64,000 nt of DNA from an uncultured cyanobacterium. GTDB lineage: Bacteria > Cyanobacteriota > Cyanobacteriia > Phormidesmidales > Phormidesmidaceae. The stretch lies in the NCBI GenBank assembly GCA_963793265.1, contig CAWBZI010000001.1, positions 1,120,001-1,184,000 on the forward strand, read 5' to 3'. Position numbers: made by a program. Of this stretch, positions 15,001 through 21,000 are shown in pieces. How positions within the stretch are numbered: position 1 is the stretch's first letter; each line of letters starts with the position of its first letter.

Positions 15001-18000
15001 AGATCGGCAGGCGAATCTGAGCGACATTAGCCTTTACCCACGAGATTGTACGCAGCGTTTCACTGCCCCAACGCAACGTGACATACGGGTGAATTAACGG
15101 ATCTTCGGCAATTTCTTCGGCCATCTCTGGCCGACGAGAGAGCGCACATTTTGCCAAACCCATTTCCATTGAAAACCGAGGAAATAAACCAGAAAGCACC
15201 CGAGCCAGCACAGCCCGCAAAGGCTTAGCAGTGCCCTCAGCAGGATCAATCGGTGGCGCGCTCACAACTAAGCCGCGAATTTTGAAAGCCTCAAACGCAG
15301 GCGACTGAGCGCAGCGCAAAACGTACTCCAGCACAATCAAACCGCCCAGGCTATGCCCCATCAAAAACAAAGGTGCAACCGGCTCGCACTGCCGGACAAG
15401 CTGTAAAAAAGCCTGAAGGTTGTCGCGGTAGTCTTGCCAGGCATCAACATGGCCGCGCTGTCCTTCAGACTTACCGTGACCCTGATTGTCGAAGGCAAAG
15501 ACCGCGTAGCCTGCCGCTGTTAGCGCTTTGACCACCGCACGGTAGCGTCCAGAATGCTCGCCTAGCCCATGTACCAGCGCTAAAACGCCCTTAACTGCAG
15601 AAGGCAAACCATCTTCGGCAGCGGGCGCACTCGGATACCAGCTTCGATAAAATAGCTCGAGTGCGTTTGCGCCCTGAAAAGTTCCGTGACGAGTTTCGAT
15701 GGTGTAAGTCTGGGGGTGTTGAGTTAGCGGGTGTTGGGCTTGGATCGAGTTCATGACGGCTATAGAATTTCAATTGTTCCGCGCTGCCCATCGATCCGAA
15801 CGCGCTGTCCGGTCGTGAGCCGGTGAGTGGCATCTGCAACGTCCATCACAGCCGGAATGCCATATTCGCGAGCGATAATAGCCCCGTGCGAGAGCTGACC
15901 ACCCACTTCAGCGATCAGGCCACCAATACGAGCGAGTAGCGGCGACCAGCCAGCATCGGTATAAGGGACAACCAAAATGGTTTGAGCATCGATATCTAGA
16001 GCAGATGTCGGCAGCGTTTAAAGCACTCGAATAGTGCCCTCTAGCTGTCCTTCACTGGCTCCGATACCCTGTAGGATACCCGAGGCCGCCATGGGAAGGG
16101 CGTTTGCGGTGGACACTATTGGCGGCGGGGCATTGCCATACACCAAGTTTGGAATACGCGCTGTCTGTTTGGCCTTTTGCCAGCCTGCTTTGGCTAGCGC
16201 TACCTTCGCACTTAACCGATCAGCCGCACTTAGCCGATTAGCCTCTTGCACCGCCACAGCATTGTCTGAAGACACTATCTAACGGTGGCGCAACTATCTC
16301 GACACGAACAGTAGGCCAGTCCAGAAAGAAAATATCGCCTTGAGCTTCTAACTGCTCTATTATTAGCCAGCGATTTTCGATTTCAACAAAGCAGCTTCGC
16401 AGGTTAGCTAGCAGTCGGTTGTAGACTTCTGCCACACGTCCTTTAAGGTCAAGCCTGGCCTGAACCTGCTTTTGTCGCCAGCCTGTTGTGGCTGTTCTTT
16501 GTCGATGGAGCGGGACGGCTGGTGTCTGGATTTAATAGGTACTGGGCGAGCAGTTCGCGTACGGGCTGAGGTGATTCCTGCCAGGTGGGAACGGCGATGT
16601 CGGTGGCGACTTCGCTCAGATAGCCGTATTTTTCTAAGAAGCGATCGAGCTGGTCGAATACCTGGTCGCCTTCGGGGTGCTCTGAGATGGCGGCGAATAA
16701 TGAGGCGCTGGTGTTAGGAGAGGTGCGCGTGTCGGCATCTATCGTGGAATACAGGCCGAGCTGAGGGAGGAGCGATCGCAACTGCGCGGCCATATCTCTA
16801 AGATCTTCGAGCGCCATGACTTCAGGGCTACTGCTATTGTCGAGCGTGGCTAGATCTACTTTAAGCAGGGATTGGCGCAGCGCCAGGCTCAAAGGCGACA
16901 GGATGTTGTAGTAAGTCGCCTGTTTTAAAAGGTCGAGAATTTCTTCAATTCGCTCGACAATAGCAGCCGGTGAAAGATCCTTGAGAGGTTGCCCCTGCCA
17001 GCGGGCGATCGCAGGTGCAAACACCTCCCGATCGTCTCTTGCAAACTCACGAGACACTCTCATCTCCTGACGCAGCAGCCGCCATAACCCAGGCGCATTT
17101 CGCAGCGTTACGCCCAAAGGCGGACGATTAAACTTAGCGCCGCGCGTCAAAAATTCCAGGCTATCGGGCGGCAGTCCCATCCGAATAAAAATATCGCCTA
17201 AAAGCGTTGCATTGAAGTAGGCATACGAATAGTGCAGCGTCGCCGTTTGAGAAAAGTCAATATCAGCCGCGCGGTCTTTAAGCACGGTGGTAAACAGATC
17301 GCCCCAAACGCCACAGGTCAGCGGTCGATTGATTGACCACGTGAGCGGGCGAATGGCCCCCGGAATCACCTCAGCCGCAATCTTTCTCGTCCAAATCGGC
17401 AGCAGCGTTGTAATCGGGCGGCTTTGCAGCACCCAAAGCTGCTCGCCGTCGAACGTCCATTCGATGTCTTGAGGAATGCCATGGAAGCGATTTTCGATAT
17501 GGCGAGCGAGGTAGGCGACCTGTTGAATTAGCGAGGTAGGCACTTTGCCTTCCATACTGCTTTTATTACTGACGGGGAGATCCAGCGTTTCAGGCAGTGA
17601 CCAATCGCCTTTATCTACGAGGCGATCGCCCACCTCCACACAGTAAGACTCCGGCGTAATCTGCCCGCCCACCACCTGGCTTGCCGCTCCCGGCAGTGCC
17701 TCTATCACCACCGCATCGCCCATGTGAGTAATCGGATCTCGGCTAAAGGCCACGCCCGAAAAGACGCCTGTAATATGGGGCTGCACCAGCACATTCATTT
17801 TGCCATCCGGCAGGTTTCGATCCTGACGGTAGCGAACGGCACTCGGCGCGTTGTATGCATTCAGGCAAACGGTAACGGCGCGCTGTAGTGCTTCTGGGCT
17901 CTCAATTTCGGTTACAGAAACATACTGACCCGCCGCAGAGGAAGTGCGGCCGTCTTCACCAATTGCCGAGGAGCGGGCGACTACTTTTTGATCGTGTGTG

Positions 18001-21000
18001 GTCTTATCAGCCGGGTTGGCAATGCCTGGAAAAACGGTCGCGATTAGAGCAGCCGGATCGTCTCCAGCAGGTAGAACATAGCCGGGCGGGACGGGATAGC
18101 CCCAGGCGTGGAGCTGTGAGAGGGTGGCGGCTTTGCTGCCGACTTTAGCCGGGTCGAGAATTGTGTTGAGTGAAGGGAGGGCGCGATCGCCTTGAAAAAA
18201 TCGAAACATGCGTCGGGATTCTCCTGCGGTAGCGGGCAAATCGAGATCGTCCGGTATCTTGTGATAAATCCAGGCGACTAAGCCAGAGAGACAGGCGACA
18301 ATAATCACCCGCATTCCGTCTGTTGGATGCACAAGCGCCGTCAGTACGGGCATGAGCACAAGGACAAACACGCGCCCCTGATCGCGCAGTCGCAGCAGGG
18401 TAAAGCCGATAAGGCTAATTAAAAAAGTGAGCCCGGCGACGATGGGATCGTAAACGAAAAATCCCCAGGCAACATTGGTTGTCCCTGCGCCTTGAGAACC
18501 CCAGTAGCGGCCCATCACCAAAGCCATTAAAGAGAGCACAGGCCAGATGGGATCGTCGCCAAAAAAGTAGCGAGCAGCCAAAATAGCGGCAATGCCCTTA
18601 AAGGCTTCTGCAGCTACCGAAAGCAGTCCGATAGGCGTGCCGCCGTGATAGAAAGCCGCCGAGACGCCGACGTTGCCTGTGCCCAGCTTCGAGAGCTGCT
18701 TGCCGGTAAAAAGGCGCACTATCCAACCGGAAAGCGGCAGCGCCCCTAGCAGTGGAACGAGCGTAAATATGATGAGTGCGCCAAGAACTTCGGCCATTAG
18801 AGGAGATTATGGTAGGGGCGTCACTGTGGGTTTGCGACGGGAAGCTCAACACTGCAGTGTTGTAATTCTACGACTAAGAACCCGATTCTTGACACAGCCT
18901 CTAGATCTATTTAAGGAATGTCATGGTCACTTTAGCCTTAGTTTGATTGCACGCTTTTACCTAACAAACGATTTTATATTTAACGAATAGGTTCCCAATC
19001 ATGACTTTTGGAGACTCGATGCGCGCGCTAAAGCGTACTTTGATCAAAAGCAGCACCGTCCTTTGCAGCAGTGCGCTGAGCTGTCTGCCCCTTACGGTAG
19101 CGGCTGAGGCAATCGCACCTCCTCACCCAGCCGAAATTTTGCCAGGCAGCACCCCGTCAGCCGTTGTCATCTCGTCTGATCCGGCAAGCTGGACAGCGCT
19201 AGAGCAGTTTGAACTCTTTGCTAAAATCACCCGCTTTGTTACAAGTTCTGGGCTAGGTGATAGCGATGGCTTAGGCAACCCTGCGGGCTTGTTTTTTGCA
19301 CCGCCTGGCACCAACTACACCACAGAAATTACGCCGTGGATTGGAGAGAAGATTGTCATAGCGATTTTGCCGGACACCACGCCGCGCAGCATTGCCGTCA
19401 ACGATCTTTCGACAGAATCGGTGGTGGTGGTGCCCGTAGCTGACGAGTCGAAGCTAGCGCCCTTTTTAGAGAAGCTCGAAACCTCTAGAGCTGAAGCGCC
19501 TGACAAGAGTATGTACGGGGATGCTGCCCTGTGGGTGTGGCCTACTCGTGAAGAGAGTTTGTATCCCGACGAGGGAAGCTGGGAGGAAGAATGGGAAGAG
19601 AACTGGCAAGGTCTGCCTGAAGTGCCTCATGAAGAGATCGAAGACTTTTCGGACGCGGATACAAAAATAAGGAACTCTGTTGGAACTAAGGCTGCTTCTG
19701 TTGAAGTTCTATCACCGCCGCCCGAAGTTTTTAACAAAGAAGATTACGACACCTACACCGTGCAGGGAAAAGCTGTTGCACAAATTGACGGCTACCTCAT
19801 CTTTGCACCTGAGCCAGAAACGCTTAAAAAGCTGTTGGACTATCGTCAGTTTGACTATCCTCGATTAAGCGATAATGAGTTGTTTTTGAGATCGCAGTAT
19901 GGAGAAGCCGAAGGGGCGATCGCGCGCATCTACGGCAACCTTTCAGAAGTCGCCAAATTCAACCTTGATGGCGGATTAGGATTATCCTCTTCTACCCCCA
20001 ACATTCCAAACATCCCAGGCATTCCGCGACTCCCAGGCATACCCAAATTTCCAACAGCTCCCTCACTGACCCTGCCGCAAGAGAACCAGGCGCTACTTGC
20101 TAAAGCCCTAGAAGGCATGACCTTTGATAGCTTGATTTATCCTCAATCAGAAGGGTTACGAATTCAGGGCCGCGTATACGGCAACAATCTTATTCGCAGC
20201 AACGCCACCCCTGAATTGCCCTATGCCGACTCAGCCCTAAGCTTTGTGCCTGCCCCCAGTTACGCGCTCAACAGCGGACGCAATATTGCTGGGTTATGGA
20301 AACAACTGGCCCGGCAGCTTTCGCGCAACGCCACCGCGCGCGACTACCTTGAGCAGGCCAGAAGCACAGTCACTCTATTCACCGGATTGGATCTTGATAC
20401 TGAACTTATCGGCTGGATGGATAGAGAATTTGTGCTGTTCTTTTTCCCTAGTCAGCAGGGCGCGATTAACAGCTTTTCGCCAGGGGCAGGGGTAGAAGTT
20501 GGCCTGGCGATTCAGACAAGCGATCGCCCCACCGCTCAAAAAGTACTCGACACTTTCGATAGCCTAACTGGCGGACTCGCCACCAACACCACCATTAACG
20601 ATGAACCCGCCGTAAGCTGGCAAGTTCCCTCCCCTACCGAGCCCACCAGCTACCTTAGCCATAGCTGGATTTCTGAAGACACCGTAGTCATCACCTCGGG
20701 CGCTGGGGCGATGGCTCAGCTCCTCAACAATTCTGCCTTTGAGCCCGTCAGCGAGCATCCTACCTTCATAAACGCCACAGATTCACTGGCAAAACCCAAC
20801 AACGGCTACAGCTATTACAACGCGGGCGCTACCTTTTCGCTGGCCTATGCACTGGTGAGCAAGTGGTTAGCGATCGCCCCTGACAATCCCACCTTTCAGC
20901 TTGTCAAAAGCTACCTCGGCACCATTCGCGGCGGCGGTGCTACCACCTCTAGCACTAACGAATACTGGCAGCTAGACTCACTCCTAAACCTAGCGCCTGC

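What a model noticed while it worked through the whole genome (the two positions that open the first line are those of the whole stretch)
15760..18797. Cyanobacterial 'second PlsY' is a degenerate PlsY membrane fold fused to a rifampicin-phosphotransferase-type dikinase
g01088 (with C-terminal pieces g01087/86), labelled glycerol-3-phosphate acyltransferase in databases, is a roughly 1,000-residue fusion of a PlsY-like membrane domain that has lost the PlsY catalytic motifs with an intact RPH-type ATP-grasp / substrate / phospho-His kinase. It is widespread in cyanobacteria and is better read as a membrane-anchored dikinase for a lipid or other hydrophobic acceptor than as an acyltransferase.
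Evidence so far: Fusion found in 82 of 151 class genomes, open frames mostly 950-1,080 aa. In the best 120 homologues the PlsY GATN motif reads GVSA/SVSA in 111, GGKG is absent in all 120 and the motif-3 position is His in only 32 (Gln 65), while the phospho-His motif SHxAI[IV]ARE is kept in 115. Best PDB matches are 5FBS/5HV1-3 (E 2e-40), ahead of PEP synthases. A lipase gene is adjacent (59 order genomes; call 166). The two frame breaks here are single extra bases absent from contigs of close strains in three other runs.
(Added by a program. Inside this text positions count along the whole contig: contig position 1,120,001 is position 1 of the stretch shown here. "Call 12" and the like, gene names such as g00115 and contig names such as C1 are that model's own, and its searches are not shown. 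The text may have been shortened before it was handed on; [...] marks where a part breaks off. The agent that wrote the report below was given it as the finding of a first reader that could run no searches.)

Follow-up and report, generated by a model that had tools for sequence, protein, structure and literature searches.

The report
Lipid-pocket membrane protein fused to dikinase
Many cyanobacteria carry a mislabelled membrane enzyme that joins an ATP-driven phosphate-transferring part to a rebuilt lipid-binding pocket; it probably activates a greasy molecule and hands it on, which would be an undescribed route of lipid modification.

Summary
The fusion is real: a PlsY-fold membrane domain, then ATP-grasp, RPH-type acceptor domain and phospho-His domain; here broken by two extra bases, whole in 40 of 40 class loci checked. 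It was found in 100 of 135 class genomes and in Gloeobacter violaceus (Glr2690). (1) The PlsY domain is remodelled, not degenerate: glycerol-3-phosphate-binding residues are replaced, but 12 of 14 pocket positions are at least 95% conserved (39 of 167 elsewhere), including the oxyanion Asn and the acyl-phosphate loop. (2) The kinase is not fully RPH-like: the essential Arg-Glu reads Lys-Gly. (3) The lipase neighbour is lineage-local. New: the same kinase clade occurs outside cyanobacteria, with a PlsY-fold gene fused, adjacent or near in 62 of 80 loci, drawn from at least two PlsY subfamilies. Best reading (0.4): the kinase makes an acyl-phosphate-like intermediate that the pocket transfers to an acceptor other than glycerol-3-phosphate. 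Close rival (0.33): a lipid hydroxyl kinase whose pocket binds substrate or product. No activity data; no paper on it found in the searches run.

The parts
18243..18797 (-). PlsY-fold seven-helix membrane domain (aa 1-185), pocket remodelled: T40, N42, V45, S46, Y50, E64-x-x-K67, R97, G103-A-G-T-T-N108, Y178, D183-D184
   Evidence: PF02660 E 1.9e-17; model vs 5XJ5 Z 18.7, rmsd 2.9, 180 aligned; conservation; mapping to A. aeolicus PlsY
17403..18185 (-). ATP-grasp domain (aa about 205-465) with the equivalents of RPH Lys22, Arg117, Glu297, Arg311
   Evidence: PPDK_N E 8e-36; K222, R275, E458, R472 each 103 of 103; RPH residues from PMC4844700 and PMC13534948
16498..17402 (-). RPH-type acceptor domain, first part, with the nearly invariant block WTRKIAAEVIPG..PLTWSIN.PL.C..W and GYLS..TDI..P.W
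   Evidence: precomputed PF27448 (named Rph_4th); conservation; alignment to RPH-Lm
16497..16497 (.). first frame break (one extra base); the main ORF runs out of frame to a stop at 16449
   Evidence: base absent in the contig of run X1, the only listed contig across it
16265..16496 (-). acceptor domain, second part; Lys-Gly codons at 16444-16439 stand where RPH has Arg666-Glu667
   Evidence: register fixed with a Streptomyces Rph and a prodigiosin-cluster PigC-like protein
16268..16271 (.). second frame break (one extra base)
   Evidence: absent in contigs of runs X1, X2, X3
15760..16251 (-). linker and phospho-His swivel domain; His codon at 15888-15886; stop at 15762-15760
   Evidence: PF00391 E 7.6e-24; His 103 of 103; sequence
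14813..15754 (-). alpha/beta hydrolase (Hydrolase_4), starts 5 bases after the kinase stop; probably co-transcribed here, but linked only in this lineage
   Evidence: PF12146 E 1.2e-74; spacing; linkage 21 of 80 and 0 of 40

Best explanation
A two-part 'activate and transfer' enzyme. Step 1 (strongly inferred from intact residues): ATP is split to AMP and Pi and His974 is phosphorylated, as in RPH. Step 2 (inferred): the swivel domain passes the phosphate to a hydrophobic acid (fatty acid or similar carboxylate) in the acceptor domain, giving an acyl-phosphate-type intermediate. Step 3 (inferred): the PlsY-fold pocket binds that intermediate in its retained phosphate loop and transfers the acyl group to an acceptor that is not glycerol-3-phosphate (no phosphate clamp; two conserved aspartates stand where PlsY has a basic exit path). 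Shown: architecture, folds, conservation pattern, partnership of the two parts. Not shown: any substrate, product or activity.
For: PlsY roles from PMC5700162. Kept in 103 diverse fusions (one row is a fragment): oxyanion Asn37 as N42 (102), Thr41 as Ser46 (98; T41S keeps 45% activity), loop glycines G103 and G105 (102 each). Replaced: Arg45 by Tyr (101), Lys104 by Ala (102), His177 by Tyr (99), Asn180 by Ile/Leu/Met, Arg183 by Asp (103). Pocket positions average 0.96 conservation against 0.69 elsewhere in the domain; 12 of 14 against 39 of 167 reach 95%; the domain is as conserved (61% pairwise) as the kinase domains (57-67%). Sequences with an intact ATP site keep the N42 loop in 54 of 55; both are broken in 14, loop kept with ATP site broken in 5. 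Outside cyanobacteria the kinase has a PlsY-fold gene fused (12), within 200 bases (43) or near (7) in 80 loci; 3 lack one, 15 are too short to tell. The partners fall in at least two subfamilies intermixed on the kinase tree; the second keeps His92, Gly102, Gly103, Gly105 in 41 of 41 and has lost Ser35, His177, Asn180 and largely Arg45, the same acyl-phosphate-side-kept, G3P-side-lost pattern. Precedent for phosphorylate-then-condense in this fold: HapC/PigC (PMC13534948). Ester hydrolases lie next to the gene in two lineages (21 of 80; GDSL in 7 of 40).
Against: His92 is Arg in all cyanobacterial copies and H92K leaves 2% activity in A. aeolicus PlsY. The sister subfamily has Ala or Ile at Thr41 in 17 of 23 (T41A leaves 5%) and mostly Thr at His92; the second subfamily lacks Asn37, so no single catalytic set is common to all partners. 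Non-cyanobacterial kinases keep Arg-Glu (84 of 91 standalone, 24 of 30 fused have the Glu) like hydroxyl-phosphorylating RPH. A profile-profile alignment shifts loop 3 by two and puts Lys/Arg (76 of 103) on Lys104, so that one loss depends on the register. Co-decay also follows from general relaxation, 41 of the 74 counted rows were chosen as good matches, and kin are not independent (cluster representatives alone: 15 both intact, 13 both broken, 4 and 1 mixed; 33 of 46 counted). No gene is linked across the class. Residue mapping rests on sequence alignments, not residue-level superposition.
Confidence: 0.4

Rival explanations
1. Hydroxyl dikinase for a membrane lipid, prenol or quinol; the PlsY-fold pocket extracts the substrate or holds the phosphorylated product and does no acyl transfer.
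For: Most characterised members of this fold phosphorylate hydroxyls (RPH; others recalled). A retained phosphate loop fits a phospholipid product as well as an acyl-phosphate. PlsY binds monoacylglycerol in 5XJ5. Catalytic side chains differ among partner subfamilies. MacB/FtsX exporters lie near 20 of 80 non-cyanobacterial loci and 4 of 40 class loci.
Against: Asn37, which touches neither substrate in PlsY and serves the reaction intermediate, is kept in 102 of 103 cyanobacterial and 30 of 30 other fusions. Glu667, essential for RPH's second step, is Gly in 102 of 103. The exporters go with the second partner subfamily (18 of 20), none with the sister of the cyanobacterial domain.
Confidence: 0.33
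2. The cyanobacterial kinase has retired its second phosphotransfer (Glu667 lost) and the protein acts as a sensor, ATPase or phospho-relay to another protein.
For: E667A abolishes RIF phosphorylation and even distant RPH clades keep Arg-Glu/Lys (PMC4844700). Cyanobacteria keep several catalytically decayed paralogues; one without acceptor domain has Asn for the His in 9 of 12 yet dN well below dS.
Against: The acceptor-site blocks (E488, W499, N502, D745, K801, Y808, R816) are 102-103 of 103; a Glu stands one helical turn on (E806, 81 of 103) and may substitute (inference).
Confidence: 0.1
3. A self-supplying glycerol-3-phosphate acyltransferase (fatty-acid kinase plus PlsY) that recycles free fatty acids into lysophosphatidic acid, as the database label implies.
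For: Database names; lipase neighbour; acyl-phosphate side retained.
Against: Arg45, His177, Asn180 and Ser142 positions are all replaced; single changes at the clamp cost over 92% activity. The genome has a canonical PlsY elsewhere that branches apart from this domain. NCBIfam TIGR00023 27 bits against a cut-off of 137.
Confidence: 0.06
4. The membrane domain is a mere anchor left over from a dead PlsY.
For: Low Pfam score and loss of the textbook motifs.
Against: Pocket-selective conservation, loss of the loop with an intact ATP site in only 1 of 55, and separate PlsY-fold genes of two subfamilies beside the kinase.
Confidence: 0.05

Closest known systems
Rifamycin phosphotransferase RPH (PDB 5FBS/5HV1; PMC4844700)
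   Same: Domain order ATP-grasp, acceptor domain, C-terminal phospho-His; ATP-site residues and His intact.
   Different: About 19-25% identity; extra PlsY-fold domain; Arg-Glu-x-x-Lys reads Lys-Gly-x-x-Thr/Ala; the HQQMMTD block is replaced by IAAEVIP; the 782-aa piece scores 101 bits against a cut-off of 999.
PlsY acyl-phosphate:glycerol-3-phosphate acyltransferase (PDB 5XJ5-9; PMC5700162)
   Same: Seven-helix fold (Z 18.7), Asn37, hydroxyl at 41, glycine loop 103-105.
   Different: G3P clamp and 2-OH residues replaced, His92 is Arg, loop 3 five residues shorter, Arg183 is Asp; separate clade from canonical PlsY.
Prodiginine condensing enzymes PigC/HapC/RedH
   Same: Same three-domain dikinase used to activate a substrate by phosphorylation before a condensation.
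   Different: Both steps happen in one domain, Arg-Glu kept, no PlsY-fold partner.
Fatty-acid kinase FakAB plus PlsY of Gram-positive bacteria (described in PMC10114076)
   Same: Logic of ATP-made acyl-phosphate feeding a PlsY fold (if the best explanation holds).
   Different: Unrelated kinase fold (recalled), product is lysophosphatidic acid, separate proteins.
PEP synthase / PPDK
   Same: ATP-grasp and swivel domains (2OLS Z 23.6 over 237 residues).
   Different: His domain is C-terminal and no pyruvate-binding barrel was detected.

Membership tests
RPH-like small-molecule dikinase superfamily | ATP-grasp, intervening acceptor domain, C-terminal phospho-His domain in that order | tested here: met
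RPH-like small-molecule dikinase superfamily | ATP-site Lys22, Arg117, Glu297, Arg311 and catalytic His | tested here: met
   each 103 of 103; His 39 of 40 in a second set
RPH-like small-molecule dikinase superfamily | Arg666-Glu667-x-x-Lys670 at the acceptor site | tested here: not met
   Lys 103, Gly 102, Thr/Ala 90 of 103; Arg-Ala in Glr2690; register; Arg-Glu is kept in non-cyanobacterial relatives
Rifamycin phosphotransferase proper (clade A) | over 42% identity to RPH-Lm and RIF-binding blocks | tested here: not met
   18-25% identity in structural alignments; block 1 differs
RPH-like small-molecule dikinase superfamily | ATP to AMP + Pi turnover through phospho-His | not testable with these tools
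   needs an assay
PlsY | seven-helix PlsY fold | tested here: met
   Z 18.7, rmsd 2.9, 180 aligned to 5XJ5
PlsY | G3P phosphate clamp Ser35, Arg45, Lys104, Asn180 | tested here: not met
   Thr, Tyr, Ala, Ile/Leu/Met; Lys104 depends on register
PlsY | G3P 2-OH residues Ser142, His177 | tested here: not met
   Arg/Lys and Tyr
PlsY | acyl-phosphate site: backbone loop 104-107, His92, Ala40/Thr41 | tested here: inconclusive
   loop glycines and hydroxyl kept, His92 is Arg; H92K 2% active in A. aeolicus PlsY
PlsY | oxyanion Asn37 | tested here: met
   102 of 103, 39 of 40
PlsY | groups with canonical PlsY, including the genome's own | tested here: not met
   FastTree, 107 sequences, 193 columns, midpoint root: separate clade, support 0.97-1.0
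PEP synthase / PPDK | central His domain and C-terminal pyruvate-binding barrel | tested here: not met
   His domain is C-terminal; PDB matches to PEP synthases cover only ATP-grasp and swivel parts

The most novel reading that the evidence does not exclude
An ATP-dependent, self-priming acyltransferase: an RPH-type dikinase forms an acyl-phosphate and a re-tuned PlsY pocket moves the acyl group to a non-G3P acceptor. It would be an ACP/CoA- and PlsX-independent acylation route present since the root of oxygenic cyanobacteria, with split counterparts in Chloroflexota and Asgard archaea, so that some 'PlsY' genes cited for those archaea would not be phospholipid-synthesis genes. Glr2690 is then one candidate (about 0.05) for the unidentified plastoquinol acyltransferase of G. 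violaceus reported in PMC12048435.
Probability: 0.35. Interest if true: 0.82.

Novelty: new variant of a known kind. Interest (0 to 1): 0.64.

Why it matters
About three quarters of sampled oxygenic cyanobacteria carry a 1,000-residue membrane enzyme that databases call glycerol-3-phosphate acyltransferase although it lacks the G3P site. It shows the PlsY fold, known for one reaction, re-used with new chemistry in partnership with a dikinase, and gives exact residues and a cultured host gene (Glr2690) for a test. The split form warns that PlsY hits in Chloroflexota and Thorarchaeota-type genomes need their neighbour checked before they are read as evidence of bacterial-type lipid synthesis (PMC6431249 lists a Thorarchaeota PlsY; whether that copy is a kinase partner was not checked).

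Tried and rejected
Complex prediction of the acceptor domain (476-890) with the membrane domain (1-205): no verdict, score 0.00, not evidence either way. Full-length model pTM 0.50, domain arrangement not usable. No RNA holder listed. Cluster look-up for host names could not be made, so the fused non-cyanobacterial proteins are unnamed; names rest on 6 standalone kinases (Anaerolineae, Chloroflexota, Candidatus Leptofilum, Thorarchaeota). Direct transfer from His to the PlsY pocket, suggested by a 590-aa paralogue without acceptor domain (12 of 13 genomes of genus g2): rejected, His kept in 2 of 12 and N42 in 3 of 12. Tetrapyrrole substrate, suggested by ferrochelatase-like neighbours (22 of 80 loci): weak for this protein, only 1 of those loci has the sister-type partner. 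Stand-in for PEP synthase (none found in the genome): rejected, no pyruvate domain. Conserved operon across the class: none. No full-length match on plasmids (0 of 32 records cover 80%). Other classes of the phylum: best E 3.9e-34, not found in those searched. ESM Atlas gave only generic Rph_4th clusters. Paper searches without a paper on this fusion: (0 hits; 0 hits), 87, 99, judged from listings; PMC13400652 has no passage on it. Subscription journals and supplements were not seen. Three look-ups of earlier findings returned nothing.

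
Full report
Observation. The minus strand holds a 782-codon ORF at 18797-16449 with a PlsY-family hit at aa 15-179 and a PPDK_N hit at 267-465; a PEP-utiliser domain lies in a separate piece at 16011-15763. An intact 1015-aa relative (P0002) maps onto three abutting pieces. In contigs of related strains the extra base near 16268-71 is missing in 3 of 4 runs laid and the one at 16497 in the single run with a listed contig across it; these contigs differ at other places too, so error and strain-specific lesion cannot be told apart. 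All 40 class loci I fetched (chosen from strong matches) have one ORF of 942-1228 aa; a few genomes of the order show shorter frames or a stop. The genome has a canonical plsY elsewhere. Numbering below follows P0002.

Distribution. Of 301 genomes searched, 135 were other members of the class; 100 have a best E of 1e-90 or lower, 3 a decayed copy, 17 weak hits only, 15 none (hand tally). The 165 genomes of other classes reach at best 3.9e-34. Gloeobacter violaceus has the fusion as Glr2690, which points to presence early in the class (inference; basal position from recall and PMC12048435).

Kinase part. Profile and fold searches put RPH first. ATP-site residues and the His are invariant in 103 diverse full-length copies. 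The acceptor site is not RPH-like. In PMC4844700 (passages; section 10) Arg666 and Glu667 are essential for the second transfer and are kept even in distant clades. Aligning a Streptomyces Rph and a PigC-like protein to the family profile fixes the register: these positions are K801 (103 of 103) and G802 (102 of 103), and Lys670 is Thr/Ala/Asn. Non-cyanobacterial relatives keep Arg-Glu (86 and 84 of 91; 26 and 24 of 30). The surrounding blocks are nearly invariant, so the site is changed, not abandoned; E806 one turn on (81 of 103) may compensate (inference).

Membrane part. The model has pLDDT 93 and matches PlsY alone (Z 18.7, next 7.1). PMC5700162 (passages) assigns Ser35, Arg45, Lys104, Asn180, Ser142 and His177 to G3P binding, the 104-107 backbone, His92, Ala40 and Thr41 to acyl-phosphate, and Asn37 to the intermediate. 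Mapped through the genome's own PlsY and intermediate sequences, the G3P set is replaced while Asn37, a hydroxyl at 41 and the loop glycines remain; His92 is Arg. The 14 mapped pocket positions average 0.96 conservation against 0.69 for the other 167; no random draw in 100,000 reached this (sequences are related, so this is descriptive; Ser142 was left out of the 14). Against this reading: H92K is 2% active in A. aeolicus PlsY, and one profile alignment places a Lys/Arg on Lys104; the other register is favoured by basal copies reading GGGVTN and by the helix start at 106 in the model.

Coupling. Among 87 sequences aligned, 74 had both regions; ATP site intact with N42 loop intact 54, both broken 14, loop only 5, ATP site only 1; 13 rows were dropped as fragments or loop deletions. 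A profile search of 1.84 billion representatives found fused forms outside the cyanobacterial clade and standalone PlsY-like relatives; a search with one of them returned 30 further fused and 90-odd standalone kinases among the 120 listed, six named as Chloroflexota or Thorarchaeota. In 80 metagenome loci of these kinases (best 80 of at least 673) a PlsY-fold gene is fused in 12, within 200 bases in 43, near in 7, absent in 3, and 15 are too short. The partners form a sister group of the cyanobacterial domain and a second group of 41 that keeps His92 and GGxG but lacks the G3P residues; two are near-canonical. On a kinase tree rooted with Rph and PigC the partner types are intermixed and the cyanobacterial proteins form their own clade (two fused loci were mislabelled there). 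A kinase that changes partner but always takes a PlsY fold needs that pocket, not just an anchor (inference).

Neighbours. The lipase begins 5 bases after the stop but is linked in only 21 of 80 named loci and 0 of 40 others, where a GDSL hydrolase appears in 7. Ferrochelatase-like genes (22 of 80) and MacB/FtsX exporters (20 of 80) accompany non-cyanobacterial loci, almost only with the second partner type. None identifies the substrate.

Mechanism. Most likely (0.4) the kinase phosphorylates a hydrophobic acid and the pocket transfers the acyl group to a non-G3P acceptor; HapC/PigC is a precedent for activation followed by condensation (PMC13534948, passages). A hydroxyl kinase with a binding pocket is close behind (0.33). 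Retired second step 0.1, true G3P acyltransferase 0.06, mere anchor 0.05. One testable lead: G. violaceus makes acyl-plastoquinol without the known acyltransferase (PMC12048435, abstract and passages, section 16); the link to Glr2690 is a guess.

Novelty. Both folds are known; the partnership and the rebuilt sites were not found in print in searches (listings only; open-access library). PMC10114076 (passages) names only the canonical PlsX/PlsY and Aas routes for cyanobacteria; PMC6431249 (passages) lists archaeal PlsY without the words fusion or fused. Databases show both domains in some names but assign the acyltransferase or PEP-synthase label. Verdict: real, widespread, mis-annotated, a new variant of the RPH-like dikinases with a probable new use of the PlsY fold; function untested.

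Noticed in passing
L037 / L248-L259 (genus g2): A second, 590-aa paralogue (membrane domain, ATP-grasp, swivel domain, no acceptor domain) is kept in 12 of 13 genomes beside a short-chain dehydrogenase-like gene; His is mostly Asn but dN is 5-10 times below dS, so a pseudo-enzyme under selection.
   Followed up: partly
P0140, P0153, P0163, P0171, P0181, P0183, P0186, P0189, P0190, P0192, P0198, P0201, P0225: A set of 330-500-aa proteins with decayed membrane and ATP-grasp domains only, apparently further derivatives of the fusion.
   Followed up: no
L034, L035 (G117, G157): Full-length 900-aa copy with the PlsY loop deleted and Gln for the catalytic His, retained in one genus.
   Followed up: partly
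L078, L106, L108, L110, L124: A psbA-like gene (identified by recall of its sequence start) lies just upstream of the fusion in 5 of 80 named loci.
   Followed up: no
L127, L135, L142, L148, L196 and others; L155, L159, L160, L164: Two ferrochelatase/CbiX-like families, one with N-terminal membrane helices, cluster with the split kinase, second-type PlsY partner and MacB/FtsX exporter in non-cyanobacterial loci: a possible tetrapyrrole-modifying and export system.
   Followed up: partly
L172, L176, L192: Loci carrying both a fused first-type PlsY domain and a separate second-type PlsY gene next to the same kinase.
   Followed up: no
G000 whole genome: Only two PEP-utiliser domains were found (this gene and a 600-aa frame on C6); no PEP synthase or PPDK was found with these queries.
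   Followed up: no
window:16250-16540: The stretch holding both frame breaks differs from the best-covering strain contig at 24 of 887 bases, against 12 of 1575 in the next contig.
   Followed up: no
L212:3530-4414, L227:8171-9046: A YegS/diacylglycerol-kinase-family gene and exoD lie near the fusion in 2 of 40 class loci.
   Followed up: no
window:11478-12523: Small genes resembling a BrnT/BrnA-type toxin-antitoxin pair and a DUF29 protein (recalled resemblance, not searched) follow the acetyl-CoA synthetase-like gene.
   Followed up: no
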